This document shows positions 2,921-55,412 of a stretch of DNA of 64,000 nucleotides, piece after piece (the first letter of the stretch is position 1; each line of letters opens with the position of its first letter). Under the pieces are notes generated by a model. That model made no database searches and was not told where the DNA came from. It was given only the letters and a program-made list of their open reading frames with translations. The stretch covers positions 38,070,001 to 38,134,000 of the forward strand of contig CM119372.1 in NCBI GenBank assembly GCA_051294905.1, given 5' to 3'. The position numbers and the translations under genes were made by a program. The DNA comes from Botryllus schlosseri. Lineage: Eukaryota.

Positions 2921-3113
2921 TTATTTGTACAAGGACTATGAAATGAACTGAATATTCGAAAACAAGGAAGAGATGTTATACCAGTTACGTGATAGCACAA
3001 ACGTCTGATTTTCAAATGTCATTGCCCATTATTACGTCAGAGGTAGACTATATTAGCTTTGCTAGTGTAGAAGAAGTGGGTCGTCTGATAACCTGCTAGA
3101 GTTGTAACCTGAG

Positions 3114-5423
3114 CACTGGCGTAGCCAGCGAGGGGCGAAAGGGGCGATCGCCCCCCCCAAATTTTTGGAAAATTTTTCGTAAAATCAATAAATATGACAT
3201 TATTTTAGGGCAGATGAATGCAACCTAAAACATTTCTTCGCGCTTCGCGCGATTTAGTGTCCATGATCATAACTGTCTTGATTTTATTATTGGTGTCCCG
3301 AAAAAAATCTTCCGCAAATACCCACAATTGATTTTAGTTGCATTCTTAGTTATGAGAATACAACAGTACCAGTAGATAGACGAGAGTAACTCAAGGTCGT
3401 TGGGTTGACTGAGTTTAGGGTTGTCAGTTCAGTATGGGGATTGGGGACTGTTAGCTCCGACAATTCCCGTTACGGGACACACGAAGACATATAAAGTAGG
3501 TTACATGCGACTCCGCAAAGTGCGCTCCCAAATTGATTGACGGCCATAAAACCGACGCATGTATTCGATATAGATTTTCGGGTACTTAAATGGCTGGCGC
3601 CTAATGATCCTGTCCCTGCAATCAGACTTCTCCGACATGAATGCGACTGGCACAGGAAAATATCGCCATCTCCCTTTAAAAAGTGCTAATTTGAAATCGC
3701 ACGAGTCTGATCAAAAGATTTTTTTTTTAATTTGGTCTGGTATGTATATCAACAATTCCAATCTCTAAACTAGCATCAATCTTTACCAGAGGTCACTAAA
3801 TAACCGTGCTTCAACGAAGTAATTATTTGGAATGGAATCCACTTGCTCATATACACGCACCAATATTATTAATCAAATACTTTCATTTATTCAAAAACAT
3901 GTACGCTCCGCGCGACTGTCCGAAATGCACACTGCTTTTCAACTGGAAGCTTCCATAGGGTATGTGTGTGCGTGCGTCTAAGAAGAGTCTGAATAAAGGG
4001 TAGTGATGAAATTGCCCATGGCAGGATGTATGGTTCTGCGAGGTGTTCCCACGGGAGAGCTTCCCTAAACTCATAAAAATCGCCCCCCCCCCCCCCAAAG
4101 CAAAAAAAAATGTAATTATGGCTACGACCTTGTGTGTGAGCGATCTCTTGAGAGGTGACAGCTTTCTCCGCAAGTCATGAAGTAACAGCAATAAATGACA
4201 ACTGTCCCGTCCAGCGTCCACCCTATACAATCTCTAAACCAGTGGTTCTCAACCTTTTTGTCGTCGCGGACCCTCTTTGCAACTTCACGTACCCCGGCGG
4301 ACCTCCAGTTCTTATTTCAAATTTGCCTCTATTATCATGCAACCTTCATCTGCCTTGTGCAATTATTATCTGTAGGCTAGTGATAAACAACAGCGAAATG
4401 ACCTTTCTTGAAAATAACATCGACTTTTTATTATTTTAAAGCGAATTATGCAGCTGCATTTCTTGAAATACAGGGCTATGTCTTGAAAATCCAAGTCGTC
4501 GATTTGATATGAACGAGTGCCGAGAATCCATTTCCACAGAGATATGTGGTGGCGAATGTAATAATAACACGTAACGCGTCCGACGACACATTTGGCTATG
4601 ATGGCAACACACATGGATCAATATATCCTCCAGCCTATTAGTCATTTCTATCTAGCAGCGTATCGTGAAGTTATTCTGGAATAGCGGTCGGTGTATTTCA
4701 TAGGAGAAAATGGATCTCTGCATACAATTATTTCCAAAACCCCAGCAAAACATCCCTAAACAGCAATGTGTTCGTATAAGTAGGCTATTGGCAATTAAAA
4801 TGACTTTGCACGGTGGAATATTTCATCTCAGACGGCCATTCTCTGTTTATGTGAGTCCTGAACTTTCAGCAGTTATGAAGCGAAAGTGCTTCATCATCTC
4901 TCTAATTTAAAACACCAAAAATAGTTTATTATTATTAGGTTATCAACCATTTTGCAAATTTGGAGTTTCGTGGATCTCTTGAAAAGGCTTTGCGGACCAC
5001 CGGTTGAGAACCACTGTTCTAAATAGTCTTGCCGTGTGTTATGAACATAGTAGGCTACATAGTTCAAGTGTACTAGCCCTGAATGTTCGATGACACCACT
5101 TCTATCAGCTTTGCCGGTAAATCTGATAATGAAAACGTATTTGCAATATGCAAGTAAGAATATAATGAACAATTTTCATTCTTTAACCAAAAAATTTTCG
5201 CGCTTCGCGCGAAAGTGTTCACGTCAGAGTTTTCTACAATCACACATCACTTTATATGAGCGGAATATATGCATAAAGATCGCCTCAGATGTTGTGTTAG
5301 TCATCCAATAAGGGCCCAAGACCATCGTTTTAGCCCATTTTTCCTTATCTTAAGGTGGGAGGGGCTCATTTACGTCATCGAATTTTTCGCCCCCCCCAAA
5401 TATTTTTTCTGGCTACGCCCTTG
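3114..5423. mobile_element. Non-autonomous hAT-like element inserted in the LTR
   Basis: TIRs CACTGGCGTAGCCAG / CTGGCTACGCCCTTG; perfect 8-bp TSD AACCTGAG (3106-3113, 5424-5431). Confidence 0.9.
4240..5016. mobile_element. Charlie-like hAT MITE nested in 3114-5423
   Basis: TIRs CAGTGGTTCTCAACC / GGTTGAGAACCACTG; degenerate TSD CTCTAAAC/TTCTAAAT. Confidence 0.8.
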
Positions 5424-7831
5424 AACCTGAGTCCCACGTAATGGGTGGCTGGGTAGATATACTTAGCTCAGGGTAGTAGGCACACGTCCCTGCGTTAGTC
5501 CTTGGTCTGACAACTTCAACGTGAATCCAACGACAGTATTGCCTCAGATAGATATATTGGTCGAATATGCATGGAATATACAGTAGGGTACCGCATATGA
5601 GTCTGGTTTGTAATTGAAATGCACGAGCTGATAAATGGTAAGTCACGTGGTAGCGAGAAGAAAGATATAAATCACGTGATATACGATATGGGCGATGTAC
5701 CACAATGATGTTGTATCTTACAAAGTGTATGAACCGTGAGAGGGCGCAGGGCGTCCTACATCGCCTCTGCTAAAAAGGCGTGATTAGCGACAATAGAAAA
5801 TGAAATTTACATGCATTGAATAGCAGTACGATTACGAAACGTAATAATTTCAACATATAACACATAGCATGTGGTTTAACGAGGTAAGGCCGAAGTGTGT
5901 AGTTAATAAAGTATTGGTGGAAGGGTGATAACGTCAATTTAAAATGCGATATTGTATGACCGCACTATTTATACAACATGATAGCAATGAAACCGCATAG
6001 TGTATTGATAACACGTTAAGGCTAGGTTAGATATAGTCAAAATGGCGAATTGGTTATATCTGAGGCAATTTTTGTATTTTATTTAAAAGAACAATAAATG
6101 AAAGAAAAAATATGTTCACAAAGGAATTGACATTGGGTCTGGCGAATGCGTCATACGCTAGAACGAATTGGTGGTAACTCGAAAATGAGTGTCTGTTATT
6201 TGTAAAGGCAAAATCCTATAAGCGGATTTACCGTGTAAGGGTGGAAAAGTCCTGGATGGCTCCATATAGCAGTTGTAAGTCCAATTGTGTAGGAGGCGAT
6301 TCGTCCTTCGTTGAAGCTGAAATCATCTCACTCGGGGCACCATGTAGAAGAAGTGGGTCGTCTGATAACCTGCTAGAGTTGTAACCTGAGTCCCACGTAA
6401 TGGGTGGCTGGGTAGATATACTTAGCTCAGGGTAGTAGGCACACGTCCCTGCGTTAGTCCTTGGTCTGACAACTTCAACGTGAATCCAACGACAGTATTG
6501 CCTCAGATAGATATATTGGTCGAATATGCATGGAATATACAGTAGGGTACCGCATATGAGTCTGGTTTGTAATTGAAATGCACGAGCTGATAAATGGTAA
6601 GTCACGTGGTAGCGAGAAGAAAGATATAAATCACGTGATATACGATATGGGCGATGTACCACAATGATGTTGTATCTTACAAAGTGTATGAACCGTGAGA
6701 GGGCGCAGGGCGTCCTACACTAGTCATTGCGTACCACAGTAAATAGATATTCGATGTACATACACGTACATTAGTGTGATTGTAAGAACAGTCGCTGTGC
6801 TGTTTATCAGCTTATCAACACGTCTCACACGCCATAGTACCCCGCAGCAGGATAATTAATCACCACTTTTCCTAGTTTAAAATAGTAACTTGTGCATTAA
6901 TGTTTGGTTATGCTTAGTTAAACGCAGTTTGACCGTTGTTGATTGGCGAGCAGTAGGCCTATGTAGTACGTACGTTCACCGGAGAAAGATTTAAAATTTT
7001 GTACTCGTCAAATAAAACGAAGCATTAAACATCAACAGCTGCTGATACATATCATAACCGAACCGTTTTTGCCGTTTCTCGTAACGGCAGCTTGCAGTAC
7101 AGTATCTGTATTAAGTTCAAGGCAGAGTTTTATGTTCTCTGCATCTTATTCTCGTATGACTCTACTGCCGTCATAGCCATGGACTTATATATCATGCTAG
7201 CGTGGGATATACCTAGAATCAGAACCAAAACAACAATTCGTCCCCCACTCCAAACGTTGGTCTTTGGCCCCCATAGGGTGGTATTTTCAAGTTGAAGACT
7301 GAATGTCGTCAATAACATTGGTAATAGCATTATATTATTATTAATTTTTGATCCTCTCTCTGCCCCCGATGGTCAGATTTACGTCTGGTATCTTGTTATA
7401 ATTACTTTAGTGTATGTTGTTAATTCAAGGCCTCCGGTCTGTTATATAACCAAAAGATATTGTTGTATCCCAAACGTAGCAGACTAAAAGAAAAAAAAAA
7501 CTTTTGTGAGACGCACACACAAATTGTCATGTCTTTAATGTTCTGCGGGTGCCCGGGAGTGGCATTTGCATTGTGGATACAGATTGGAAGGACCAGACTA
7601 TTAGTCACGACCACCCAGCGCGGCTATTGACAATGGGCACACACCCTAAGTTTCGGCCAAGGTCTTTCTTTAGTAGCACACTTCGTGAAGTCGCGTGTTG
7701 GTCGAAACTACATGTGTGTCGTGGCACGGTATTGACTGGAACCTAAATGCCCATTACTATAAATTAGGGGTGCTTTTAGAACAAAATCAATTTAAAGAAA
7801 ACATGTTTAAAAGAAAGGCCCTTGTTTAAAA

Positions 7832-8639
7832 CATCATCATCATCATCATCATTGGTTTATTAGCAATTTTATCAGTTCAATACACCACAAAAAATGCGAT
7901 ACAATGAATAGACAGGAAGATGTCGAAGCGACTTGGATTTGTCAATGGAATCGGACACCCACCTTGGCCTAGGCGTAGTAAAGAGGAGGCATGCACACTG
8001 AATGAAAGTAAAGAATACAGTATAGAAAAAGAAAGCGACAAGAAATAGGGCGGCATGTCATTGGAAGCGAGATCGATAGGTCAGTCGTGGTCCGGTAATC
8101 TTGAGGATGGACTGTATTTATTTAGTAGTAATTGCTTGTATTTCGACTTGAATGTGGACATGCTCGTCGACTGTCGGATGGCCGGCGGGATACTGTTCCA
8201 CACATCAGGTCCGGCATATTTGATGGAGCGATGATCTTTTCGGTCGATCATATGATATTTGGACGACGTGGACGCGCGTGTGTTGTACTTGTGCGCTTTT
8301 GATTCAGGGGTAAAGAAGTCATTGAAATATTCGGGGCAACGACCGCAGTGAAACTGATACATAAACTTGGCGATTTCTAGTTTCCGCATATCTTCTATGT
8401 TTAGGACGCCGAATCTCTTCAGCAGCGACTTATTGGATGGGCAGCCAGGCCCCTTTGGGGCCCTAGCTATGATTCGGAGCACTTTATGCTGTAGTTTCTG
8501 CAGTGGCTTGAGTGCAGTTTTACTGGCAGCCCCTCAACAGAGGATGCCATAATGTAACTTCGATTGGATTAAGGATTTAAAGAGTATCAGGAGAACCCAT
8601 GCTGGCATGAAGCGCCCAAGGCTGTAGAACAGGCCGCAC
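7832..8639 (-). mobile_element. 5'-truncated CR1/L2-group LINE (ORF2 C-terminus, 3' UTR, AATAAA, (ATG)n tail)
   Basis: Encodes ...LHYGILC*GAA...KLEIAKFMYQFH...HKYNTR...YAGPDVWNSIP. Near-identical inverted copy at 9524-10326. Confidence 0.9.
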
Positions 8640-9217
8640 ATGTTTTTTATTGATTTATTTTTCAAGCAATGGCGTCACGAATGTGGATTGACATTGACAA
8701 TTGAAAATATAGGGGAAATATAGCTCCTTTGACGAAATATCTTTAATATAATTGTTGAACCGACTATTTTGAGGGGTTCCAACCCTCCTATATCGATGTA
8801 TGTCGGCTACATCGGGTGGCAATTGTCCGTATAGGCTCATACAACATGTTTTTTCGAAAGCATTTATACAAATATGGCATAATTTTACAACAATTTTACA
8901 ACACAATTTTTAAGTTATTTAAATCCCTCAAAAATACTCTATGATTTATGTAGGTTTACGAAATACTTTTGAGTCCCCTTCTAGCTCGCTCCCCACCCTA
9001 TTGGGAAATTTGGGATGGGCACTGGGCAGTCATGAACCTGGCAAGAATGCAAATCGTTGGGTGCGATAAATCGTCCACTATAAAAATGGGCAATATGTAC
9101 ATTATGACGTAACAAGCAAATGACGCATCTTTTTAAAGGAAGTTTGTTATCTCATTAGGCGTTTTCAGCGCAATCCATATATTGTCATCCAATAAAAATT
9201 CTAATATGCAAAATAAA

Positions 9218-9377
9218 TGTAATCGTGAGTAATCGTGATTACTTTTCCAATGTAATCGTAATCGTAATCGACTACTTCCCGATTTTGCTGTAATCGTAAT
9301 CGTAATCGTAATCGCGTCATTCAGAAGTAATCGTAATCGCAATCGATTACATTCATGAAGTAATCACCCCATGTCTG
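9218..9377. mobile_element. Right terminus of the (GTAATC)n DNA transposon family
   Basis: GTAATC array ending ACCCCATGTCTG, the inverse of 2766-2777. No matching TSD with the left end. Confidence 0.7.
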
Positions 9378-9523
9378 ATCTAGATTTCCGACCGAGAATT
9401 CGTATTGCTCGGTTTTGCAAGACTTGTAATTTCTGCAAATGTTTTTTTGCAGCAGGTCCCCAAACTAGGATCCCATAAATGAGATAGCAGTGAATTAAGG
9501 CATAGTAGACTGATCTGATCGAA

Positions 9524-10326
9524 GTGCGGCCTATTCTACAGCCTTAGGCGCTTCATGCCAGCATGGGTTCTTCTGATACTCTTTAAATCCTTAATCCAAT
9601 CGAAGTTACACTATGGCATCCTCTGTTGGGGGGCTGCCAGTAAAACTGCACTCAAGCCACTGCAAAAACTACAACATAAAGTACTCCGAATTATAGCTAG
9701 GGCCCCAAAGGGGCCTGGCTGCCCATCCAACAAGTCGCTGCTGAAGAGATTCGGCGTCCTAAACATAGAAGATATGCGGAAACTAGAAATCGCCAAGTTT
9801 ATGTATCAGTTCCACTGCGGTCGTTGCCCCGAATATTTCAATGACTTCTTTACCTCGGAATCAAAAGCGCACAAGTACAACACACGCGCGTCCACGTCGT
9901 CCAAATATCATATGATCGACCGAAAAGATCATCGCTCTATCAAATATGCCGGACCTGATGTGTGGAACAGTATCCCGCCGGCCATCCGACAGTCGACGAG
10001 CATGTCCACATTCAAGTCGAAATACAATCAATTACTACTAAATAAATACAGTCCATCCTCAAGATTACCGGACCACGACTGACCTGTCGATCTCACTCCC
10101 CATGACATGCCGCCCTATTTCTTGTCACTTTCTTTTTCTATACTATCTTCTTTACTTTCATTCAGTGTGCATGCCTCCTCTTTACATCGCCTATAGGCCA
10201 AGGTGGGTGTCAGATTCCATAGACTACTCCTTGTCGCTTCGACATCTTCCTGTCTTTTCATTGTATCGCATTTTTTGTGGTGTATTGAACTGATAAAATT
10301 GCTAATAAACCAATGATGATGATGAT
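9524..10326 (+). mobile_element. 5'-truncated CR1/L2-group LINE with an intact 175-aa ORF2 C-terminus
   Basis: ORF 9555..10082 carries the typical LINE ORF2 tail motifs YGILCWG, HKYNTR and GPDVWNSIP. Ends AATAAACCAATGATGATGATGAT. Confidence 0.9.
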
Positions 10327-11049: not shown

Positions 11050-11235
11050 TCGTCACAGACATGATAACACACCCCAGACACCATAACACACCACAGACAT
11101 GCCCAGACACGATGTCCGAGTGTCAACACAGTTCGCACACGCCCCCCGACATGCCTCAGACATGTCCCAGACATGATGTGCGATCGAAAACGCAGTTTGA
11201 ACTTACTCCAGACATGCCTCAGACATGATTTCTTA
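11050..11235. repeat. Left part of a CAGACATG-rich tandem repeat (about 40-55 bp units)
   Basis: Recurrent CCCAGACATG / ATGTCCGAGTGTCAAC motifs; continues at 16770 beyond the Gypsy insertion. Confidence 0.8.
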
Positions 11236-11243
11236 CTGTCCAC

Positions 11244-14200
11244 TGTAGAGAACGTAGCGTTGTCGGATAATCTGCTGGAGCCGTAAGCCTGAGTCCAACG
11301 TAGGTTGTGACTTACGTACTTAACTAGCAGTGGCGAACGCCTGGCCCTGCGTTAGTCCTTGATCTGACAGCTCAACGATGCATGCGACGACAATTGCCTC
11401 AGATAGATGTATTGGTCGAATGAATATGAACAGTAGTAGCGTATGAGTCCCATGTGGGATATCTGAATGTGCGCGTTTATATATGGCGCGATACAAGAAG
11501 AAGGGCGTGGTCACGTGATATACAGCGTGGTACAATTTGAGTAATGGCGTGTTTTATATTACAGGGTGTATGAACCGTAAGAGGGCGCAGGGCGTTCCAC
11601 ATCGTCCTCATTTAAAAAGAGCTATTTATAGCGACAATCCCAATATATAGGAAAGTGGATATCATAATATTCACATGAATGAATGCGATAACAGCAATCG
11701 AAAGATGAAATAATGTATTGATGCAATATTTTAACACCGTGGTAGCAATGAAACGGTATGAGTTAGTGAATGAACTAACACGTTATGGGTTGGATTGAAT
11801 ATAACCTAATCAAAATGAAAAGGACAGTGAATTGCGTATCTGAGGCAAAATTTTGTATTTTATTAGAAGGACAATACCGGACGAAAACGAAAAATAAATG
11901 TGTGGAAAGGAAACGGCCTTATGTACGCAGTGTCCGTTATGTCGTAAAAACAACAGCCCGATTGGAAACCGAACTAAAATGCCGGGCAGATTTGGGCACA
12001 TGTACGGAGTATGGCGATATGCAATCGTATGGTCAATTGGATAGGTAGGCAATAATTGCAATATAACAAGTGTGTAATAATGTGTATGTTGGGAATACCG
12101 TATTCCTAAAGTGTGATAGCCGAAACACGTGGTTCAAGATACCATTGCATTACGGCATTAGGGTTAAGAAAAAGGCAATTGTATTATTGCTTTATTAAAA
12201 TGAAAGAGAAAAGGGGAAACGGATGGCGAGCACCAACAAAGGGATTCAAATTGCCGCCAATCGATCAAATATAGGGCAACAACCGTCACTGTGTTCTAAA
12301 TACTTGTCCACTGCGACGAAGGGATAATCAGTGTGGGAAGAATCCGGTAACCCTATTTACGAACGAAAATAGGACAACCAGATGTGTGTTTATTTTATGC
12401 CGTTAGAAATGCCATGACGATAACAGCTGCGAGAACGATTATCACATGATACGATACGGAAGCGGAGAAAATTATACAAAATTAAGTAGCAAGTATATTG
12501 AAATGTAGGGAAAAAGAAACCACGAAGAGGTTGCAGGAAATCGCTGTCAATCAAAATCCATTCCGGGTATAGCTCCGGCGATAATCGGTCGTGCAAGAAG
12601 AATGTGCTTTCCACGTGCAATGGCCGAGGAATAATATAATAATACCCCAGCAAAGGGATATATATAGAAAAGGTCCTGAATCATAATATTTCAAGTATTA
12701 CGAAATTCGCTGCGTTGTAAAATGCGAATGTGTCTTATGCAAAGATTATAACAGCTTTGCCATGTGGCTGCGAAAGTCAAATCAGTTCGTCCGCTGTGTA
12801 TGACAGCGAGAGCTATATATAAATTAGCCGTGGGATCGCGAAAATGCCGGTTAAGCGGTAAAGTTAGTGCTCCTTGATATATTTTATAAGGCCACTTTGT
12901 CCAGAGTGACTCTGCCGCGGAATTCTGGTATATTTGGTATACACGCGAACAACGAAAAATTCGCGTTGTGCTTCACGATTACGACGGGTTTAATCGTACC
13001 AAAGCGCGATAGGCGTAGCTGATGTCGTACAGTACATGGTACATGTATTCCCCGAGTAGTGAGGCCTTTATGGGTCGCGCAGCAAAAATAGTGTACCAGT
13101 TCCTAGTGTCCGGCGTATATTTTACCGGAGCGGCGAGTGAATAGTCCTTGTATGAGCATGAGCATGTCGGCATTCGGCGATCCCCGGCGGAGTGATACGT
13201 TTTTTCGAATATACGAATCTAAAACGAGACGAAAGCAGTATTTGCGAAAAAAATATGCATTTAATACCAAGCCTACACACGAAATAACAGGACGTGTAAA
13301 ATCAGGCAAATCGCAAATGCAATATGATAAGGAAGCCTTACGTAGCCGCGACCAGATATGTTTTGGTTGGGAATACCAATTGTATCTGAAAATGTTTCGT
13401 GACGCGCTAGCGTGACGTAAAGACCGCGTGCATTGCGTAATAAGAAATACTACATGCGGCTGGGACATGAAAACTATACCGGAGATTCCGGGTATTTTAA
13501 CAAAGTCGAAGGTTTTGATATTTGTGACAACAATTATTCGAGTGAACAAAGAAGAGACATTGCGCGTAGAATATGCCGTGTCATGTAATAATGAATATTA
13601 TTCCCGGACGCGCAGTGCTTAATATGCTTATACGAAGGCATTGAAGCGTTATATATAATGTTATGAGTAGCGTCAATTAAGAGACAAGTAATACGACCTC
13701 TTGGTGATAACGGTACGTCGTCGCTACTTTGTAACCGGGTTGAATATAGTTCCCAATCTAGAAGTCGATAGAAGTTATGCCGGATATTCCGGGTGTGTTG
13801 ACAAGCTCAAAAGTATAGTAAAGAAATATTAACATGGAAAGATGAATGCAATTGTAGCGTAACGCGGGGAATTCGTCATTTAATTATATAACGAAGTAAG
13901 TCGAGAAAGTAGAGTGTAAAAATTGTAAAGATAATGTAATAACAATAGCTGAAGTCATGAAAAATGTGTGTATTGTTAGGTAGCCTAATGGCATGTACGA
14001 ATTTAGTGCTGCGAACACGCAGTCATGTCAAAAAAGTCCCTAGCGATGTACGCCTCATGGTATACCACAAATCCAGACATATCGCTGAATCTGCGCGCCA
14101 TATGCTATCCAGATATAAAAAGGTTTCCGGAAATAAATTGACGTGTGCCGTTAAACACGCCGCGACAGGAAATGCACAAATGCGTAAGTAAGAATCGTGC

Positions 14201-16761
14201 TTCACATTAAAAGTATATATATCATATACATTGACTGTAACGCTTTTGTAAGTACGGACTTCCTAGTTGATCAAAGAATGCAACAGATTGCGATGCGAAC
14301 GTCAGCATCAGATTTCGTAAGTATCGCGAGTCTGAGCGCTGGAGACCACGAGTCTAATTACAACACTGACTCTGTCCAACCGCTTGATCAGGGCGGTAAT
14401 CCAGGACCAGATATGCAATCCCGTGGTCAACGCTCTTAGAACAGGCTCGGATACCCCCGGGTCGGAATAAGTGCCTTGGATCCCAACACAAAACTGAAGC
14501 GATTCTTGATTTCCTAGGTCGGAGTAGCATATATGAAACGGGAATGTCCGTGATCAAATATCACGGGGTGTTTAAATGATATTACTGCGTCCGAATGGCA
14601 TTGCAGGTAAAATATATATGTATCGCATGTGACTAGGTTGACGGTATCGCGGGTAAAAGGACATAAGTATTGCGGAAAAAAAATTCCAGCGTGTTAAAGC
14701 GCCCTTATTTAGGTAAAGGTAAATAGAAGTAAGCAAATATGTCAAAGACCTAGTATAAAGCTGTGTCCGTGAATTTATCACATTCCATGAATAGGGAATT
14801 TGGTAAGGACATAATGTACGCGCTAATCGCATTTGCGCGGAAAATAGTGTGAAGTTGTTGAACGTTATGGAAATTAATGAGCGGTGCGTAATATATAAGA
14901 ACGAACCGAAATTCAACAGACTGTTGGTAAAATTCCGAGTTTTGTATGTTAATATGCAACAACGAATGTTGAAGGTATCGAATCAACTGGCATAAAATGT
15001 CTCGGATATTACAAAAGTGGAAAATAACTTCCGTATTCATATAAATCCAAGCTCAATGTTGATGTAAGTTAAGGTGAATAACGATACTTAACGATATGTT
15101 CAAGTAACGCTGTAATGTAATTAAAATGATATCACCATTGTGGTAGAAATATATCAAGTAAGCAGGATGATTAGAACGCGTTTAACTTTGATGTTTATTT
15201 CGCGTTAAGGAGAATGTATGAGTTCAATCTTTTTTTATCTGCGCTGCACAGAAAGAATGGTAATGCTATATTGAAATGCGTAGTTAAAAACCAAAGTTTA
15301 GACCTTGATTTAGTGACCGATAATAACCACAGACATTTGCTTTAAATAGCGTTTAAATCTGCGGAACAGAATGGCTGAAGATGTTTCGTTGTGAATCTAT
15401 TGTTTATCGAAACAGACACACGCGTGCGGCAAGGAATTAAGAACTAACTAGCGCTTAGGTAACGCAGAGCAAATTAAAAATGGTTCCTCACCGATAATGA
15501 GGTCATATACGAACCAGATTGTGAGGGTGCGTTAGTACAGTTGAAATTACTGTTATAAATTGAGAATGAATTAGAACGACATCACGAAATAATGCACGTT
15601 TGTTTGCAAATGACAGTTGAGCATTATGACTGTTGAAATTAGCAGCGGACAATCTAAGCGCGAATCCCAAAAGCACGCGGGGAATAAATCTCCAAAGCAA
15701 TTGATGGAGTAGGGATCCCGTAAGTCCGTATTTGGATTAATATGCAATTCGATTGATTGTTAATATATGTATAGTCCGAGTATATAGACTTATAGAGTAC
15801 TCGAAAGTTAAAATGAAGAAGGTATTACTGGCCAATAACAAGGTGGCAACCATCAGTAATATCGAGGCATTGCGGACTTATGTTAAAGTCATGAATCCGA
15901 AACAAAATGGTGGAATAACGAATCAAAATTCGAAATTTTGTTGGGTTGTTTAAAAAAAAATGCAGAACGAACGTGGATTTTACATCACAGCCGTAAACGC
16001 GCTTATGTCGGCGTTTATAAGTAAACTCTGCACTTCAAATATGCGGTTGGAGCGCGGAAATTTCGAGGTATCGTCGAAGTAGCGAATCGAATGTTGGTTT
16101 CGAACGTTAGGAAATTATATTGATTTACCAAAACCAGAAACATGGCCGGATCGTTGCTACGTATTGCAGCGGCAGATATATAAACCATAGTACATGTAGC
16201 GAGCAATAACACACGAATTAAATGGAACTGTAAATGCAAAACTGCTTTCGTTCGACAATTCGTATATGCAAAAAACTGTACCGTAAGGTTTGGGAGTCCG
16301 AGTGCGGTTTCTGGAGTGTCCATAGTGGTTGACGAACTAAATCCGATATTGAGGCGGCGATGCGTCTTTCGTTGAAGCCGAAATCATCTCACGAGATGCA
16401 CCATGTAGAGAACGTAGCGTTGTCGGATAATCTGCTGGAGCCGTAAGCCTGAGTCCAACGTAGGTTGTGACTTACGTACTTAACTAGCAGTGGCGAACGC
16501 CTGGCCCTGCGTTAGTCCTTGATCTGACAGCTCAACGATGCATGCGACGACAATTGCCTCAGATAGATGTATTGGTCGAATGAATATGAACAGTAGTAGC
16601 GTATGAGTCCCATGTGGGATATCTGAATGTGCGCGTTTATATATGGCGCGATACAAGAAGAAGGGCGTGGTCACGTGATATACAGCGTGGTACAATTTGA
16701 GTAATGGCGTGTTTTATATTACAGGGTGTATGAACCGTAAGAGGGCGCAGGGCGTTCCACA
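11244..16761 (-). mobile_element. Gypsy-type LTR retrotransposon with identical 358-bp LTRs and a heavily decayed 4.8-kb internal region (non-autonomous)
   Basis: LTRs 11244-11601 and 16404-16761 (TGTAG...CCACA); 4-bp TSD CCAC; PBS TGGTGCATCTCGTGAG at 16388-16403. Faint pol relics in Gypsy order on the minus strand: LVLDYR ~14400, FDQLGS ~14265, FLYLDSI ~14110, LRRGSPNADML ~13175. No ORF over 148 aa. Confidence 0.92.
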
Positions 16762-16769
16762 CCACGCAT

Positions 16770-24914: not shown

Positions 24915-27283
24915 CATAGGCGCCGACTTTTATTTTTTTACGAGGTGGCGAAGTCTTATGACGTCATAATTGTTACATATCGATGACGTCATCGTCGCAG
25001 GAAAACGCACTTTACTACATGCCGCTGGCGTACGTGCAGAGTTAAACCATTCGCTTGACGTTTTAATATCGGCCATGCACTCATTAATATCAAACCATGC
25101 AGCCGATCATTAAATGGAATCTTGAAACGGTACGATCATTCGGAAGTGTAACTACGGCCTGCGCTACCGACGGAATGCATCGAACAAAAATCAGAATTCA
25201 CGTCACCGAAGAATCTGGAGGTGCATCAATGTTATTCACGCGCAATTCGCCGTGTTGAGTAACGAAATACAATATGCAATGGCCTTGCAAGTAACACACG
25301 ACAACTCTCGAATATTTTAAGCAGACAATAATGATGATTACAAGCGCGAAATCGCGCTGCCAATCAGTAATTGTCTATTGCGGTTTCTTGCTTCGCGTTG
25401 ACCAACTCGCATCGCGGCAATTGTTTGCTGATTAAAACAGCGATTCGGGCGGCATTGGTGCATTTCCGATTTACGTTCGCGAAGCATTTCGGGAGTACAT
25501 TGGTCAATTCGCAAATTCAATTTGCATGTCGACGGCCGCCAACACATACTAATTAAATTACGTGTTGATAGCCGCACAAATTTGCTTCTATGGCCGCAGG
25601 TTGGCCACCCCTGGGCTAAAATTAATTCCACTTCTGGGCGCATGCCGCGATCTTATCATAGAAATCCGCTGTCTACCTAATGCCTAATAGTTTAATATTC
25701 GATATTGTTGTTCTCGATAAGAGTACATCCAGCTCAATCAAGTTTATCGTTGTTCAAACGAATCGAATAAAATCAGAATTTGTGCCACCCAGAATCTTGT
25801 GATGCATCAATATTTGACAATGGCATGACATGGCCTACTGCACGTTAATAATGAAAGGAACACTTAACAATGACTTTGTGCGTCAATTTCGCGGTACGAA
25901 TGTATCCAGTAGATAACAAGTAATATGGATGATGGGATGATGGCAAATGAGAAAGCGTGTATTCTAATCAGAATCGCCACGGATGGGTTTTGAGTCTGAC
26001 ACCGTATTGAGTAGCTTTCGTCGCGACAATTGTTTTCTCATTATATCGGTGTTTAGGCTGTATTGCTGCATTTCCCGATTAATGTCACTGGCAAAGCCTT
26101 GTGAGAGAAACGAATCTGCGCAGAAATGAATTCCAATTTGCTGACACACACCAACACACTCTCCAATTTCGCGCTCTGATTACCAAGACTATGAAGAAGC
26201 TAGTTAGCTCGTGAATGGTTTTGTACTAGAATATGGGCGCACATAATTTAGATTTCAGAAAAGGAGAACGTCTATTTGGGCGCCTGGTCGGGAGAGGAGA
26301 GGAGATTCAATTCGGGTTAAGTACATGTGTAAATGGCGATCATATAATCTGTTCGTATTGACGATTTTAGGCGTATGATAAGCATGCCAAATAGTCCGGG
26401 AGTGCTGTCAATTAGCGAGTCCCTGATATCTGGTGAACAATTTACGTTCAAGTATTAGCGGGAATCAATTACGCACGTTAAAGTCTGATTGCAGCGATTC
26501 GATGTTACTCAGTTCCGCGATGTCGCTTTTTAATCAATATGACATAAAACAATCACTAATTAGCGTAAACTCGACCGCATTGTCTCAAAACCAGCGAGAG
26601 ATAGGAGCCAAAGCACTTTATGCCCGAGACGCGATAGTTAGGCCAGCAATGATAGCTTTCGCACCAGGCCTATTGCAGATGCTATTGTGTAGGCCAGCGA
26701 TGATATCGTGCACCCAGGCTGAAGCCGCCAATGCAGATGCGATTGCGCAGGCAAGCGATGATATAGTGTGAACTGGGCCTATTGCAGATGCCATTGGTCA
26801 ATTGTTCATGTTTAAGCCTGCGGAACCAGGCTAGCTCGATACACTTAAATCAGGCTAGCGACGATTGCCACGCGCACAGGAATGAATGACCTAATTTCGC
26901 GACCATCTCAGCGGGAGAATATCACAGACTTTTCTCCCTAATTCACAACACGTTTCTCGCAAATCAGCCGCGCGGAACACTGATAACACAATTATTGAAT
27001 TGCAACCGAGTATTAGAGTTATAATGATCATTTCAAAATGACGGGGTTTCGCGTTTCAAATAGGAAAGTTCGACCCCCGAAAGCCCCGTGGCGACGAGCC
27101 TGGCACACGCGCGTATCGAAATCGAAGACGTCTCTAACGAGGTTGCATCGATTCGCCTGATTACAAATTACTGCTCACAAATCACTTGGGCGTTTGAGCA
27201 TTTTGTACGAGGTGGCCGCCACCTAGTAAATATGGTCACGAGGTGGCTGCGCCACCTCGTAACCGCATAAGTCGGCGCCTATG
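24915..27283 (+). mobile_element. 2.4-kb non-autonomous hAT-like element, copy 1
   Basis: TIR CATAGGCGCCGACTT / AAGTCGGCGCCTATG; perfect TSD GACAGGAC; no long ORF. Confidence 0.92.
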
Positions 27284-28480
27284 GACAGGACTATTCATCG
27301 CCTGGACATATCGATATCGAATGCTTCGGCCAAGATGCGTCAATCTTTTAGTGCAGTGGTTACCAATCTGTGGTGCGCGCACCACTAGTGGTAGTTATTA
27401 GTTCAGGTGGGGTTGATTTTAAATTTTTTGAAGTTTTTTGACTAGTGGTGAAAAACAATTCTATGCATCCCACCAACCCTGGCTGATAATAATGCCTAGT
27501 TTAATATAATTTGCTATTACTAGGGCAATTTCTAAGGACAGGGCAATTTCTAAGGACATGTCATAATTTTGTCAAATTGAAGCGTTTGGTCAAAAAATCG
27601 TCAAAATTGTATACAAAGTCAAAAAAATTTTGACCCCTCTATTTCGATTGTATCGTAGATTTTGCACTGTCGGTGAACTTATTATTTGATATTTTACAGC
27701 TTGTAGCCTACTTCATAGGCCTACCATTGTAGACGACCCAATGCCTGCTCATCATGAATCATTAACGGTCAAACGAAACAAAGAGGTTGACAATAGACAT
27801 GGTCTTATGCTCAACGTACTGCAATATCCGAACTGAAACAAGACTGCTTCGGCATCGCAAGGTTTTTGTATCAAGAAGCGCATGATAAAAAATTGTGATG
27901 TAGACACCATTGTCAGAATGAAGCAACACGATGTCACCATCAGTGTACGCACGCACAACTTCAGTGTTGTCAGCCAACAACTGCTGCTGTCGAACGTTTT
28001 TGTTGTAGTATCTTTCGTTGTGCTACATCAAATCTTAATTACAGTACCTCTACCATAATACGTGGTGTAGGCTAACTTAGTAACTACTGGAATTCTTCAC
28101 TTCGTCCAAAATTTCAATATTTCGGTACAGACCATCAATAGTTATATGGCTAACTATTAGTGATAGAATTGAGCTGGAATATCCCAGTATTTATAGGTGA
28201 CATCAAATTTTGTAAATAGAAAATAGGGTACTGGTATGAGGTATGGGCCGCTGTATGTATTGAATCAATATATGCTTCATTATCCTACAAACCTCAACTC
28301 CTGTCACAGTTACCAACAATTTGGATATACTGATATGTAGGCCTATGTGGTCTGGAAGTAGACAATTATTTATTTCAACTCTTGTGTTGATCATAAGTCA
28401 TAACCCATCCTTACGAAACCAGATAACTGAAAATATGTAACATGAATATCACTATCAAATTATGCTTCCTTCGCCTAAAC

Positions 28481-29580
28481 TAGGGTTACCATAATTTTGT
28501 GAAGCAAATTCCGGACACTCTTTAGCGCCCACTAGCGGATTTCAAAATGAGTTGTGACACATTGACCGTCAATATGACGTCACACTAGCAAAGCATTGCC
28601 CATCGACTGTATGTACTATACAGGAATGAAGTGGAACATAGGTCATGAATTGGGCCATCTGTAATGTGAGCTCTGGTGAATGCTACTTGATTGGGTTTGC
28701 AATAGATTCCTCCACGGGCCGGATGAAATCATCTGGAGGGCCGTGTCTTGTCTGTCAGGATTGTGTTTGACAGCCCTGCTATACAGTTGGGTCGGTGCGG
28801 CTATCAGTTTATGTGTTTTAATCAGGTCCGAAACAACATTATTTTCTCCCCCCTTCCGCCCAAAAAAGCACTGATCTTGGGCCCACCATAGGGTAGTCGA
28901 TGTAACTTGTTGGGCACTTACTATATGCATTTGGCTGTTGAATTTTATGTATGAATTCTGTCAATAATATCGATTCTCTGATATATTAGGCTAGCCTACT
29001 ATAAAATGCACCAGCAGGTTGCACATCCGGTGATTTCCAACCTTTTATGGTCACGACCTCATTTCCCCCTTGAAAATGTTCCGTGGCAAAGCTCAAAACT
29101 TGATAAGCTGATTACTAAAAAAATTCAGCTTGCCCGGCCTGGGAAGCTCATTACGTCCAACATCATCACGATCCCCAGATAAAGGCGGACGACCCCAAGA
29201 TTTGGAACCACTGCCTGTTATTGAAGCATCCGATCGGCCTTAACCAACTCTAGGAATATGCCGTTAGCTTCAAATTGCGATTACAATCAGACTTAATTCA
29301 GTAAATGATGGTTATTTATATTTATTTTGATTGCATTTTGTGGCGAGGGTGGTGCCTGGTACTCATACTAATATCATTATACGTTGCATTAACTCGCACG
29401 CGGCGAGAAGAACAATTTTGAATAGCATAAATCTGCTTGAAAATAATATTGTTAACGTTGATTTACGAAAAACTTTTGAGCCTGATTCCAGCCTTCAAAA
29501 TTCCGGACATTTAAGCATATTTCAGAAATTCCTCCCAGACGCAGATTTTTCAGTGAAATTCTGGACGTATGGCAACCCTA
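28481..29580. mobile_element. hAT-like element of TAGGGTTACCA type
   Basis: TIR TAGGGTTACCATA / TATGGCAACCCTA; perfect TSD GCCTAAAC. Confidence 0.88.
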
Positions 29581-30387
29581 GCCTAAACTCCCCCATCAAA
29601 TTCAAATGTCACAGCTCTATCTCTATTTAAAATGGGAGTGACAAATCATAAAACATCTTGAAGCATATGATGACATTCTGCGCTAACAAACTTTTCTCCT
29701 TTTGATTAAAGACAGTATGGGCAAACAATTTTGAAATATTTTTTGTGTGAGATTCATCCCCTGTTTTTTTCATATACCTGTTTAATGTAGCTACACCAAT
29801 TTTGTACTGACATCATGCTTCTCTTTTTGATGCCACCCATGCTTTAACTTTTCGCATTGCCAAGTTGAGATCTGATTCAGTGAACTGGCCCTTTGTGTGG
29901 ATTTCATTATTTACTTTCAAGAGATTGTATATGGGAGGGATAAGACCAACGTCTGCTGTATTGCAGTGATAAATATATTTAATAGCGTCAATCAAATATC
30001 GGTTTTAGGTTTATGGTATGCTGTCCCATACCCCAGCCTATTGAGGTATGGGCCCACCGATGCTCCAACCTGCTGAATGGCCCACACCTCAAACGCTCCT
30101 TCTTGGGGATTCTTACCATAATTTCAAGACAGAGAGATTGACAAAGCATTAAAACTATTCTCCATAGATAGCATATTTCTATAGCTTTCACGCCATAAAT
30201 AAGTCTAACTCAAACGTGCACATACATAGACTCAATCCCAAATTATTTATCTTTAGCCGAGTCAAAAACTCTGCTGGCGTCATGGCTGTGAGGAACATGT
30301 GTGAGTCTGGAGCCTTTCTCTTACAATCACAGAGCGTGACAAGCATGTGTGATGTCACAGTCGCCTGATATGGCAGTGGCCCATACC

Positions 30388-33124
30388 AATAGGCGCCGAC
30401 TTACGTGGTTACGAGGTGGCGGCCACCTCGTACAAAATGCTCAAACGCCCAAGTGATTTGTGACCAGTAATTAGTAATCAGGCGAATCGATGCGACATCG
30501 TTAGGGACGTCTTCGATCGCGCGGGTCGAACTTCCCTATTTGAAACGCGAAACCCCGTCATTTTGAAATGATCATTCTAACTCTAATATTCAGTTTCAAT
30601 TCAATGATTGTGTTATCAGTATCCCGTGCGGTTTTTGCGAGAAACGTGTTGTCAATTAGCGAGAAGAGTCTCTGATGATCTCCTGCTGAGATGGTCGTGA
30701 AATTAGGTCATTCATTCTCATGCGCGTGGCAATCGTCGCTAGCCTGATTTATCGCATCTCGAACAAGCCTGGTTCCGCAGGCTTGAACATGAACATTCGC
30801 ATCTGCAATAGGCCCAGTTCATAATATATCATCGCTTGCCTGCGCAATCGCATATGCATTGGCGGCTTTGGCCTGGTGCGCACGATATCATCGCTGGCCT
30901 AAACAATAGCATCTGCAATAGGCCTGAGTGCGAAAGATGTCATTGCTGGCCAACTATCTCGTCTCGGGCCTAGCATGCTTTGGCTCCATCTCTCGCTGGT
31001 TTGGAGACAATACGGTCGAGTTTACGCTAATTAATGATTGTTTTATCTCATTGACTAAAAAGCAACATCGCGAAACTGAATAACATCGAGTCGCTGCAAA
31101 CAGACTTTGACATACGTACGTAATTGATTCCCGCTAATACTTGAACGTAACGATCCGAAGATATGTATCATGGCTCAAGTTCATAAAGACGACATACGTT
31201 TGAAATCGGTGCCGTCAAGTTCGGACATTTTGATTTGTGAAAACCGTCGCCGAGACTGCGTAATACGCGCACGTATTTAATTGATAACCAGGGATCAGGG
31301 ACTCGCTAATTGACAGCTCTCCCGGACTCTTTGGCAAGCCTAAAATCGTCAATACGAAGAGATTATATGATCGCTAGGGCAAGTTTTTGTTGCAGTTAAA
31401 TCCGTGGAAAGTTGCATTTATTTTTGAAAAAAGTTGCAGAAGTTGCGTTTTGACCACATTTTGCTGGGTTGACTAAAAATAAATTTGAATTTGGACGTGT
31501 ATTTCACCAAAATCAAAAATACTTTTTTTGAAAAATCGAGAAAATTGCAAAATGTTGCAAAAAGTTGCATGAAAAAAATGGACAAAAGTTGGAAATAGTT
31601 GCACTATAAGATTCCTTCAAACAGCTTAAAACAATTCTTCATATCTTACGAGTATTTTAGAAGCTGTAAAAAAAGTTGCAAAAACTTGCCCTATTGATCG
31701 CCATTTACACATATACTTGACCCGAATTGAATTGATGCTATATTGGTAAGCTTGAAAAAAATCAAAATCCTACTAATTTTGCGACAGGCTACGCTCCTAG
31801 CGTGTGCTGAGAAGCACCATCCTAGATCTCCTCTCCAGACCAGGTGCCCAAATAGACGTTCTGCTTTTCTGAATTCTAAATTGTGTGCGCCCATATTCGT
31901 TTACAAAATTATTCATGAGCTAGCTAGCTTGGTGATAGTCTTGATAATCAGAGCGCGAAATTGAAGGGTGTGTTGGTGTGTGCCTGCAAATTGGAATTCA
32001 TTTCTGCGCAGATTCATTTCTCTAACAAGGCATTGCCAGTGACATTTATTGGGAAATGCAGCAATACAGCTTGAACACCGATATAATGAGAAAAACAATT
32101 GTCGCAACGAAAGCTACTCAATACGGTGTCAGACTCAAAACCATTTGTGGCGATACTGATTAGAATACACACTTTCTAATTTGCCATCATCCATATTTCT
32201 TTTTATCTACTCGATACACTCGTACTCCGAAATTGTCGCGCAAGGTAATTATTCAGTGTTCCTGTCATTATTAACGTGCAGTAGGCCATGCCAATGTCAA
32301 ATATTGATGCATCTCAAGATTCTAGGTGGCACAAATTCTGATTTTATTCGATGCGTTTGAACAGGGAACCTTCCACATTCCGATAAACTTGATTGCTGGA
32401 TGTACTGGTATCGAGAACAACAATATCAAACATTAAACTATTAGGCATTTGGTAGACAGTGGATTTCTATTGAAAAAATCGCGGCATGCGCCCGGAAGTC
32501 GTCAACACATAATTCAATTAGTATGTGGGGCGGCCGTCGATATGCAAATTGAATTTACGAATTGACCGATGTACTACCGAAATGCTTCGCGAACGTAAAT
32601 CGGGAAATGCACCAATGCCACCAAAATCGCTGTTTTAATCTGCAAACAATTTCCACGATGCGAGTTGGTCAACGCGAAACCGCAAGAGACAATTACTGAT
32701 TGGTTGCGCGATTTCGCGTTTGTAATCATCATTATCGTCTGCTTGAAATATTCGAGATTTGTGTGAGTTACTTGCCAGGCCAGTGCGTAGTGTACACAGC
32801 GCATTGCGCGTAATAACATTAATGCAACTCCTGATTCTCAGTGACGTAAAATCTGATTTTTGTTCGATGCATCCCGTCGGACGGACTGGTAGCGTAGTTA
32901 CTCTTTCGAATGATCGTACCGTCTCAAGATTCCAATTAATAACTCGACTGTATGGTTTGATATTAATGAGTTCACGGCCGATATTAAAACGTCACGCGAA
33001 TGGTTTAACGCCAGCGGCATGCAGTAATGTGCGTTTTAGTGCGACGATGACGTCATTGACATGGAACAATTATGACGTCACAAGACATCGCCACTTCGCA
33101 AAAAAATAAAAGTCGGCACCCATG
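30388..33124 (-). mobile_element. Copy 2 of the 2.4-kb hAT-like family, inverted relative to copy 1
   Basis: Reverse-complement homology to 24915-27283 along its length; TSD CCCATACC (30380-30387, 33125-33132). Confidence 0.9.
31375..31693. mobile_element. MITE with AAGTTGCA repeats nested in copy 2
   Basis: TIR TAGGGCAAGTTTTTG / CAAAAACTTGCCCTA; TSD ATGATCGC/TTGATCGC; absent from copy 1. Confidence 0.88.
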
Positions 33125-36628: not shown

Positions 36629-37405
36629 GGTAAGTTGAAGGAGAAGCGTACCCGATCTCAGGCACCGCAAGACATCATGGGTAGCGTGGAAATTCTGGTG
36701 TATAAAAACCGTAACAAAGAGGCTTCGGAGTGTTTCGCAAAGCTGCGTGAAAAACTTGACAGTCAGTCACATCCGTCGGCGAACGATTTTCAAATTTTAT
36801 CTGAATCTTGCCGGACAAAAGGCAAGAATCCTGTCCGAGTGACTTTATTTCATTTTGCATCCGCACAGAAGGAAGAGAAAGAGAACCCTGACAGACTGGA
36901 TATGACAAAGAACGTACTTTGCTATATTGAAAAAATTTCTCGAATCGTTTATGAACTAACTGCATCCAAAAGTGAGGCGCTGAAACATCTTGTGAGTGGA
37001 GGAGCCCATGCTCCTTCTGTTGCCAATTTCCTAGTCACCATAATGGAAGATATGTACCGCCATATTTGTAAGACAAGTCCTAGCGGCTCACTGATTGAAT
37101 TAAAGCTGAAAACATTGTCAACCCTAGCAACGTGTTTCTACAAAGTTAATCAGTTGGATAAAGTCATCGCTTTGACGAATGACAAGAAATTTCACTGGGA
37201 TGCAATTAAGAATGAAGATACGGTGCGTTTGATTATGATCCGGGGAATGTCATTTAAGGAAAAGGGTAAACAACAAAAGGCGCTCTTAGCGCTTGAAGAG
37301 GCGAAATCGCTGGCAAAAAGACTGGAAGCAAAACAACTCCTTGATGAAATAGATCATGAAATTAAAGATATAACCAAGAAACCACCCATACTTAACATGA
37401 AATAA
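36629..37405 (+). CDS. Terminal coding exon; alpha-helical protein with TPR-like repeats at the C-terminus
   Basis: TTTCTATAG acceptor, 258 open codons. TLSTLATCFYKVNQLDKVIAL and LIMIRGMSFKEKGKQQKALLALEEAKSL fit the TPR pattern. AATAAA at about 38220. Confidence 0.75.
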   Translation, partial: GKLKEKRTRSQAPQDIMGSVEILVYKNRNKEASECFAKLREKLDSQSHPSANDFQILSESCRTKGKNPVRVTLFHFASAQKEEKENPDRLDMTKNVLCYIEKISRIVYELTASKSEALKHLVSGGAHAPSVANFLVTIMEDMYRHICKTSPSGSLIELKLKTLSTLATCFYKVNQLDKVIALTNDKKFHWDAIKNEDTVRLIMIRGMSFKEKGKQQKALLALEEAKSLAKRLEAKQLLDEIDHEIKDITKKPPILNMK

Positions 37406-53442: not shown

Positions 53443-54607
53443 CAGACATTACAGAGACTGCTCAACGAAAATGTCTTGCTAGATCACTAGGTTGAGATAG
53501 CTCGTGGCCAATCATACCATTTTACCCGTATCATTAGAGTGGCAAGCATGGTACACTTGGTAATGTGTTTTACCAAATAAATGTGATAATATGGTTAGCC
53601 TTATAGTATTGTCTACTCTCCAGTTCCAAATTGTTGTGCAGATGGCTGATTTTTATGCACTTGGCAATCATTCTTGCATGTTACCCGTCATATTACAACT
53701 TTACTAGGTGTCAACTGTGTGTGTTTTGGCTTGTAATCAATATGGTCTTCTGGTCAGAGCTATCCAAAGATATCGGGGACAAAAGTTACAACACTCCGAA
53801 AATTTATCTGTAGTAAACTCCGACTCCGCTCCGACTGGCACAAAATCGGCAAAACTCCGCTCCGAATACACTCCGACTCCGCTCCGATGCTCATCACTGG
53901 TGGGCACAAAAACACCCAATAATAATGATATCAGCGGTAATTCTTGCGTCCACATAGCAGGATTGGGGTGATTACCGCTGTCATTTCTCCGAGCACGCCA
54001 AGATCCGGGTTGATGCTCTCTGAGTGATTCGACTCCAGTAAATCTATCAGCATTTCTGATCCTTCTGTGCGTCGTTATCAGCAACTAAATAACTATACCT
54101 ATTGTAATTGACTTTCGCTTTAACACCTGGCGAAGAAGCGGCGCTCAGAAAGCTCGTGTAACGAAGAAAGTTATATTCATTTACGAGTGGATGTTAAATA
54201 GGGCGTGGAAGCTACCAAGATCTTACATTTACCTATTGTAATATAGCTTCCATTAACTCCAAACCCCAACTTACTTGGCAGTAGTTCTACTTACATATCC
54301 AGCGACTGATATTGGAAAATGCAGCAATATATCGAGTTGGATGACGAGAACTTATTGCCGTAGAAAAATTGGAATTATGAATAAAATAGTATTTACGGTG
54401 ACCAATTCTTCAATTATTTATTATAGTGGTGCCAGGCGCGTAGCCAGCCGAAAAATAAGTAGGGGGTTTTAAAATAATAGGGCGGGGTTTCGATATCTTT
54501 CGATTTCATATTTCATATTTTATTTCATATTTCATATTTATTGTGATAAGATATACGTATTGATAACTTATATCATTATATGCACTGCTGCACTGTGATG
54601 CTAGAAA

Positions 54608-55372: not shown

Positions 55373-55412
55373 ACTGTAACCACTAATTCAGCCTTGATCA
55401 ATAGATAAGAAA

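What the first reader, a model, noticed from the sequence alone, without database searches (positions are those of the whole stretch)
11244..16761. Recently inserted Gypsy-type element whose gag-pol is almost unrecognisably decayed
Seen: two 358-bp LTRs that look identical by eye, a perfect CCAC TSD and a PBS, yet 4.8 kb of interior with no ORF over 148 aa and only faint RT/RNase H relics. Known: LTRs are identical at integration. Inference: the interior decayed long before this insertion, so this is a long-lived non-autonomous (LARD-like) lineage mobilised in trans that has kept near-genomic length, perhaps for packaging.
Basis: partly seen in the sequence, partly recalled or inferred. Interest (0 to 1): 0.7.

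Follow-up and report, generated by a model that had tools for sequence, protein, structure and literature searches.

The report
Young, gene-less LTR retrotransposon family
This is a recently inserted 5.5-kb jumping element that encodes no proteins and must borrow them from another element, a kind already known from plants, mosquitoes and mice, and the claimed traces of old retroviral-type genes inside it could not be shown.

Summary
Structure confirmed: a minus-strand LTR element with LTRs identical at 358 of 358 bases, a CCAC target duplication, a primer site and no ORF over 148 aa. The interior is not private or an assembly error: 20 of 24 listed runs (11 studies) hold it, and other copies are mostly 90-99% alike; the best-covered span keeps most stops. 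So it is a multi-copy non-autonomous (LARD-like) family, most likely moved in trans. The 'RT/RNase H relics' are not established: Pfam, PDB, a 1.84-billion-protein search and a local frameshift-aware Gypsy profile were blank; a global alignment gave only a borderline signal (4-10 of 150 controls as high). 'Length kept for packaging' is weakened by a 1.3-kb sister element 5 kb away that also has identical LTRs. Extras: strand-skewed, U-rich composition and a primer site drifted from tRNA-Met. No partner was found; the genome was not available. New member of a known kind.

The parts
16404..16761 (-). 5' LTR, 358 bp, TG...CA; TATA-like box at LTR position 119
16388..16403 (-). primer-binding site abutting the LTR; 12 of 16 bases match a tRNA-Met-type site (sister element: 15 of 16); the changed bases form a small hairpin
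11602..16403 (-). 4,802-bp non-coding interior; sense strand T 0.337, A 0.265, C 0.231, G 0.167; AG-poor, CG-rich
12205..14127 (-). path of the best relaxed alignment to a Gypsy RT-RNase H-integrase profile; borderline, not established
13817..14419 (.). stretch with about 2-5 times the contig depth of the rest of the interior in both DNA runs; unexplained
   Evidence: table 2
14267..14510 (.). candidate small insertion inside the interior: 7-bp direct repeat on both sides, imperfect 12-bp inverted ends, weaker compositional bias; not tested against chance
11602..11613 (-). weak polypurine tract (10 of 12 purines) after a T run; homologous in the sister element
11244..11601 (-). 3' LTR, identical to the 5' LTR
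11240..11243 (+). target-site duplication CCAC, left copy
16762..16765 (+). target-site duplication CCAC, right copy
11054..11243 (+). left part of the degenerate satellite-like array that the element interrupts (continues 16766 to about 17405)
   Evidence: uninterrupted units seen in other runs, tables 5c, 7
3066..6719 (-). sister element B: 377-bp identical LTRs, 582-bp interior, CTAG target duplication, about 70% alike to element A in LTR, leader and 3' region; TRIM-sized (1,336 bp without its insert)
3114..5423 (.). DNA-transposon-like insertion (short inverted ends, 8-bp duplication) that splits B's 3' LTR

Best explanation
A young copy of a multi-copy, non-autonomous LTR retrotransposon family (LARD-sized). 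Shown: intact cis parts (identical LTRs, 4-bp target duplication, primer site, purine tract), no coding capacity, and the same non-coding interior in other samples. Inferred: the LTR promoter makes a genome-length RNA, which is packaged, reverse-transcribed and integrated by Gag, RT and integrase of an autonomous element elsewhere in the genome, probably a Ty3/Gypsy element primed by tRNA-Met. The lineage has been non-coding for a long time and has split into long (A) and short (B) forms about 30% apart, both recently active. Whether the interior descends from gag-pol is open (about 0.5); if it does, it has moved roughly 0.4-0.7 substitutions per site or more, with many frameshifts.
For: LTR identity 358/358 and 377/377 with clean 4-bp duplications in two neighbouring relatives. 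20 of 24 listed runs, 11 studies, 3 organism labels hold the stretch, 12 with half or more of its words. All 24 interior bins are covered in both DNA runs laid; one contig over 14632-15164 differs by 1 substitution and 2 gap letters where the window has 13, 4 and 6 stops in the three sense frames; listed length variants are mostly 1-2 bases. Sense-strand skew T>A (z 6.4) and C>G (z 7.0), not reached jointly in 0 of 123 other 4.8-kb stretches of the window, and opposite to the A-rich sense strands of two intact pol loci: in-place decay would not be expected to give this (inference). A few sense-oriented RNA reads from other copies of the interior in one single-cell run (depth 6-9 at 12209-12610).
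Against: No autonomous partner seen and no genome to search (pattern scans found no relative). Only one full copy of A was seen, so LTR identity is one observation; gene conversion is not excluded. No orthologous empty site shown: the uninterrupted flank may be another satellite unit. No contig spans the whole element. The primer site matches the tRNA-Met type at only 12 of 16 bases. The RNA evidence is thin (294 reads over the whole stretch, many with loose ends like element B) and the second RNA run laid 0 reads.
Confidence: 0.82

Rival explanations
1. One reading: the interior is a whole, colinear gag-pol that decayed while the lineage kept replicating in trans, and full length is kept by selection for packaging.
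For: Total length 5.5 kb fits a compact Gypsy element. With relaxed penalties the best path runs profile columns 79-726 along 14127-12205 on the sense strand, where pol would lie. Global Forward score exceeded by 1 of 50 and 4 of 150 controls with the Gypsy-only profile, antisense and reversed lower. Power analysis shows such a relic can be invisible beyond about 0.4-0.7 substitutions per site.
Against: Other settings gave 8 and 29 of 50, and 31, 7 and 3 of 40; with a broader profile 7 and 10 of 150, and the antisense strand scored as high or higher. A non-Gypsy stretch of the window scored 29.7 bits against a shuffle maximum of 22.2, so shuffles understate the background. No triplet periodicity (z -0.6 to 0.2; weak test). 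The 1.3-kb sister is also recently inserted.
Confidence: 0.25
2. The interior never was this element's gag-pol: it is captured or reshuffled non-coding (or antisense coding) DNA between LTR-derived cis parts, as in most of mouse ETn or the Culex non-autonomous families. This is a version of the best explanation, not an alternative to trans-mobilisation.
For: All library searches blank; positive controls detected at 95 and 160 bits; the plus strand, not the sense strand, has the A/G-rich make-up of coding DNA; a candidate small insertion lies inside.
Against: No host source found in the window; the same skew marks the short sister's interior and is even along the length; borderline pol-like diagonal.
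Confidence: 0.4
3. An old dead insertion whose LTRs were made identical by gene conversion or by a collapsed or polished assembly.
For: Not directly testable here; LTR variants exist in other runs (a 50-base replaced stretch).
Against: Two separate relatives have identical LTRs; the assembly keeps 4% differences between 670-bp inverted arms 0.9 kb apart; target duplications are perfect; other samples carry the same broken interior at 95-99% identity, which independent decay of old copies would not give.
Confidence: 0.1
4. The element primes itself with its own RNA like Tf1, as earlier scan notes propose for other families of this genome.
For: A 7-8 base stretch about 28 bases past the LTR pairs with the LTR at the homologous place in A and B; A's primer site is a poor tRNA-Met match.
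Against: The site abutting the LTR begins TGG and matches a tRNA-Met-type site (15 of 16 in B; a metagenome locus shows this site running on into a tRNA body with a CAT anticodon); matches of 7-8 bases are near chance for a 40 by 358 comparison.
Confidence: 0.05

Closest known systems
LARDs (large retrotransposon derivatives) and other long non-autonomous LTR elements (PMC3532108, PMC4558846, PMC2533021, PMC13570524; passages read)
   Same: Over 4 kb, LTRs, primer site, purine tract, target duplication, no coding capacity; in sugar beet 57 of 115 non-autonomous families exceed 4 kb, 43 keep coding remnants and 61 have no traceable partner.
   Different: Probably an animal host (inferred); short 358-bp LTRs, unlike the 4.4-kb LTRs given for barley LARDs; strand-skewed U-rich interior.
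Mouse ETn (partner MusD) and VL30 (partner MLV) (PMC6466679; passages read)
   Same: Non-autonomous LTR elements (a VL30 insertion of 5.5 kb is cited), recently active, ETn with no coding capacity and only traces of retroviral homology, moved in trans.
   Different: Those derive from vertebrate retroviruses and have a known partner; here the partner is unknown and the structure is Gypsy-like.
38 non-autonomous LTR families of Culex quinquefasciatus (PMC3286476; passages read)
   Same: Invertebrate, 3-15 kb, short LTRs, tRNA primer site, 4-5 bp duplication, no master copy found.
   Different: Those carry tandem repeats inside; Tandem Repeats Finder lists none in this interior.
TRIMs, including PbTRIM of ants and ta-TRIM of tapeworms (PMC3532108, PMC4558846; passages read)
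   Same: Sister element B fits this size class; partner assigned in tapeworms by shared LTR end, primer site and duplication length.
   Different: Element A is four times longer; long and short forms sit side by side here.
Morgane of wheat (named in PMC2844528, passage read; its degenerate pol is recalled, paper not read)
   Different: No coding remains are demonstrable here.

Membership tests
LARD / long non-autonomous LTR retrotransposon | paired LTRs with TG...CA ends and target-site duplication | tested here: met
LARD / long non-autonomous LTR retrotransposon | primer-binding site and polypurine tract | tested here: met
   primer match 12 of 16, tract 10 of 12 purines, both weak but conserved in position in the sister
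LARD / long non-autonomous LTR retrotransposon | length over 4 kb with no coding capacity | tested here: met
   5,518 bp
LARD / long non-autonomous LTR retrotransposon | multi-copy family sharing the non-coding interior | tested here: met
   (short contigs of other runs; no full-length second copy seen)
LARD / long non-autonomous LTR retrotransposon | mobilised by an autonomous partner | not testable with these tools
   no genome held; pattern scans found no relative
Ty3/Gypsy superfamily | pol with RT-RNase H-integrase order and Gypsy-type RT | tested here: inconclusive
   blank; borderline
Ty3/Gypsy superfamily | 4-bp target duplication (typical of many animal Gypsy lineages; recalled, not diagnostic) | tested here: met
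   CCAC in A, CTAG in B
BEL/Pao superfamily | BEL-type pol; 5-6 bp duplication (recalled) | tested here: inconclusive
   duplication is 4 bp; no BEL reference obtained (blank), Pfam blank
Tf1-like self-priming elements | site abutting the 5' LTR pairs with the element's own RNA start instead of a tRNA | tested here: not met
   no complement of 9 or more bases; site is tRNA-Met-like
TRIM (element B) | short non-coding LTR element with primer site, tract and duplication | tested here: met
   1,336 bp; (within the 1.5-kb extended definition in PMC13570524)

The most novel reading that the evidence does not exclude
A full-length, colinear gag-pol that has lost all coding constraint yet kept replicating for so many rounds that its RNA strand has drifted from A-rich to U/C-rich and its primer site away from tRNA-Met, with one internal stretch (about 14.0-14.4 kb) held by selection as an RNA signal. 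The family would then be a natural record of the in vivo mutation spectrum of a borrowed reverse transcriptase, free of protein selection, and a pointer to a packaging signal inside pol.
Probability: 0.2. Interest if true: 0.55.

Novelty: new member of a known kind. Interest (0 to 1): 0.3.

Why it matters
As a class it is known: long gene-less LTR elements that stay mobile are described in plants, mosquitoes and mice. The family itself seems unrecorded by this scan and would be missed by domain-based annotation. Its value would rise if the interior proves to be pol-derived, since copies would then show how an RT mutates sequence without coding constraint and which internal RNA parts a parasite must keep. 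Long and short young relatives side by side allow a direct test of whether length matters.

Tried and rejected
Pfam on six whole frames (0 families in 6 of 6) and 30 sense-strand segments (one unrelated hit, E 0.4). PDB sequence search: 0 hits in 3 of 3 (one search used a frame other than the one intended). phmmer of one sense frame (733 residues) against 1.84 billion proteins: 0 hits. tblastn with five references: best E 0.24. hmmsearch with a 58-row pol profile: best E 0.48. Anchored 40-column scans: no colinear run on either strand. Rfam: 0 matches. Folding z-scores along the element: 3 of 36 windows below -2, nothing at the high-depth stretch. No depletion of poly(A) or splice-type words beyond dinucleotide content, so my idea that AG loss reflects splice avoidance is unsupported. 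LTR and primer-site patterns: nothing in viral contigs or metagenomes; one search gave 2 loci, neither related to the family., 40 gave three phage-type tRNA-Thr/Leu genes with a similar 3' end, so the 16-base site alone does not name the tRNA. One search returned plant badnaviruses, of use only as distant controls; one search gave 1 protein. BEL motif scan blank. No RNA holder listed; run X21 laid 0 reads (no test). Protein-language-model look-alikes remain unchecked. The profile is built mostly from one insect Gypsy clade, so other clades and BEL/Pao are under-tested. Literature: 7 searches; the one on strand-skewed composition in non-autonomous LTR elements found 0 papers with 4 of 5 terms, which is a narrow search and no proof of absence. 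Supplements were not opened.
Full report
Observation. The element spans 11244-16761. Its two LTRs (11244-11601, 16404-16761) are 358 bp and differ at 0 positions, end TG...CA and are flanked by CCAC on both sides. With 0 of 358 differences the 95% upper bound on LTR divergence is about 0.8% (rule of three, my calculation). A TGG-starting primer site follows the right-hand LTR on the minus strand and a weak purine tract precedes the left-hand LTR, so the element reads on the minus strand. It interrupts a degenerate satellite-like array.

A sister element. Five kb away lies element B (3066-6719, minus strand): 377-bp LTRs that are also identical, a 582-bp interior, a CTAG duplication, and about 70% identity to A in the LTR, the leader and the 3' region. 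Its 3' LTR is split by a 2.3-kb insertion with short inverted ends and an 8-bp duplication. So the wider family has long and short non-coding forms about 30% apart, both recently inserted. This argues against a need for genome length.

Is the broken interior private? No. Of 24 runs listed, 20 (11 studies, 3 organism labels) hold the stretch, 12 with half or more of its words, best share 0.62; the best holder could be the source sample. I laid 4 of these 24 runs. Both DNA runs cover all 30 bins, 24 of them interior. Contigs laid (flank repeats included) fall at 99+/95-99/90-95/under 90% identity as 1768/1751/1229/199 in X3 and 69/78/73/17 in X1. One X1 contig over 14632-15164 differs by 1 substitution and 2 gap letters where the window has 13, 4 and 6 stops in the sense frames, so most lesions there are shared; a contig over 12677-13425 (12 substitutions, 20 gap letters; 6, 11, 7 stops) is less telling. 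The 12 best-supported length variants shown are 1-2 bases (45 more not shown), and gaps of 41-253 bases occur. No contig spans the element. A loose end joins the left flank to the right-flank sequence, but the flank is a repeat, so this is not proof of an empty orthologous site. Depth is about 2-5 times higher at 13817-14419 in both runs; loose ends there look by eye like diverged homologues, so more distant subfamilies may stay alike only in this stretch. This is unexplained, and folding shows nothing special there.

Is the interior a decayed gag-pol? Not shown. Pfam, PDB sequences and 1.84 billion proteins gave nothing. I fetched intact Gypsy pol proteins and built a profile from 58 rows (55 of the 120 homologues plus 3 locus ORFs). 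tblastn and hmmsearch were blank. A frameshift-aware local alignment under a DNA-decay model scored 18-20 bits, equal to controls, while held-out natural controls scored 95 and 160 bits. Five motif-like stretches that I picked by eye ranked 131, 1812, 45, 946 and 3136 of about 4,740 positions. With relaxed penalties the best path ran columns 79-726 along 14127-12205, the usual place of pol, but 31, 7 and 3 of 40 controls scored as high at the three settings. A global Forward score was reached by 1, 8 and 29 of 50 controls, by 4 of 150 on repeat, and by 7 and 10 of 150 with a broader profile, under which the antisense strand scored as well. A stretch at 4221-4547 that looks like a DNA-transposase remnant (motif recalled) scored 29.7 bits against a shuffle maximum of 22.2, so shuffles understate the real background. 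The power analysis says a Gypsy pol 34% identical to the seed stays visible at 0.5 substitutions per site with one frameshift per 60 codons, or 0.3 with one per 30, and is lost beyond. The blank therefore fits either very deep decay or a non-pol origin; I put these at about even odds.

Composition. The sense strand is T 0.337, A 0.265, C 0.231, G 0.167; T exceeds A at z 6.4 and C exceeds G at z 7.0, a joint skew reached in 0 of 123 other 4.8-kb stretches of the window. AG is depleted (z -7.5) and CG enriched (z +8.4) in 16 of 16 bins; the two intact ant-type pol loci are also CG-rich (1.4) but A-rich and T-poor. B's interior leans the same way (z 1.9 and 3.4). Decay in place should erase strand skew, so the skew suggests either long evolution through RNA and reverse transcription or a skewed source sequence (inference). 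The unpolarised differences among copies show no strand bias once base content is allowed for, so this is not confirmed.

Primer site. B matches at 15 of 16 bases a site that, in metagenome locus L008, runs on into a tRNA body with a CAT anticodon, which points to tRNA-Met; three phage-type tRNA-Thr/Leu genes have a similar end, so the assignment is likely, not certain. A matches 12 of 16, and its changed bases make a small hairpin (-3.6 kcal/mol). An X1 contig over 15967-16403 has only 3 substitutions, two of them placed elsewhere, so the altered site is largely shared. A switch of primer, or tolerance of mismatches, is possible. Earlier scan notes propose self-priming for other families of this genome; the test here found only a 7-8 base leader-LTR match, near chance.

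RNA. Single-cell run X23 gave 294 reads from about 3% of the run, peaking in the LTR (11405-11605) and in the sense direction if the second mate reads the RNA strand (usual for droplet libraries; recalled). Many have loose ends like element B. Interior reads at 12209-12610 (depth 6-9) carry letters of other copies. This is weak support for transcription of the family, not of this copy. Run X21 laid 0 reads.

Mechanism. Shown: intact cis parts, no coding capacity, shared interior, two young relatives. Inferred: LTR-driven RNA is packaged, copied and integrated by an autonomous element, probably Gypsy-type, since a 4-bp duplication and TG...CA ends need an LTR-type integrase. No partner was found and the genome was not held. 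Collapse of the assembly is unlikely because inverted arms 0.9 kb apart keep 4% differences; gene conversion is not excluded.

Comparison. From passages read: LARDs are over 4 kb and non-coding (PMC4558846, PMC3532108, PMC2533021); in sugar beet 57 of 115 non-autonomous families exceed 4 kb, 43 keep coding remnants and 61 have no traceable partner (PMC13570524); Culex has 38 such families without a master copy (PMC3286476); mouse ETn has no coding capacity, only traces of retroviral homology, and is moved by MusD, and VL30 by MLV (PMC6466679). Morgane is only named in PMC2844528. The element meets every LARD feature that could be tested; Gypsy membership is inconclusive. The scan had no look-alike of this stretch.

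Verdict. A real, young, non-autonomous LTR element of a known kind. Interest 0.3.

Noticed in passing
window 3066-6719: TRIM-sized sister element with identical LTRs, one of them split by a later 2.3-kb DNA-transposon-like insertion (3114-5423), which itself seems to hold a decayed transposase-like stretch near 4221-4560.
   Followed up: partly
window 13817-14419: Contig depth 2-5 times that of the rest of the interior in two DNA runs; possibly a conserved internal RNA signal or a separately amplified piece.
   Followed up: partly
window 16388-16403: Primer site differs from the tRNA-Met type at four central bases that create a hairpin; could be one template-switch event or a primer change.
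   Followed up: partly
window 14260-14517: 7-bp direct repeat 251 bases apart with imperfect inverted ends inside; candidate small transposon carried by the family.
   Followed up: partly
window 7839-10326: Inverted repeat with 670-bp arms at 96% holding two opposed copies of a LINE-like ORF2 C-terminal fragment (ORFs 8081-8533 and 9519-10082).
   Followed up: no
window 24915-33124: Large foldback structure: many inverted arm pairs at 87-95% spanning about 8 kb.
   Followed up: no
window 54605-58574: LINE-like element with ORF1-like, PHD/endonuclease-like and RT-like frames (by eye).
   Followed up: no
window 36629-37405: 258-aa open frame with a helical-repeat look; not searched.
   Followed up: no
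L008 641-708 (minus strand): An unrelated LTR-like element whose primer site runs on for about 48 bases of tRNA-Met sequence, past the anticodon loop.
   Followed up: partly
window 12089-13792: Several short CCGG- or GGAATAC-based hairpin motifs recur in the interior (for example 13475-13513 and 13776-13814, 77% alike); chance not excluded.
   Followed up: no
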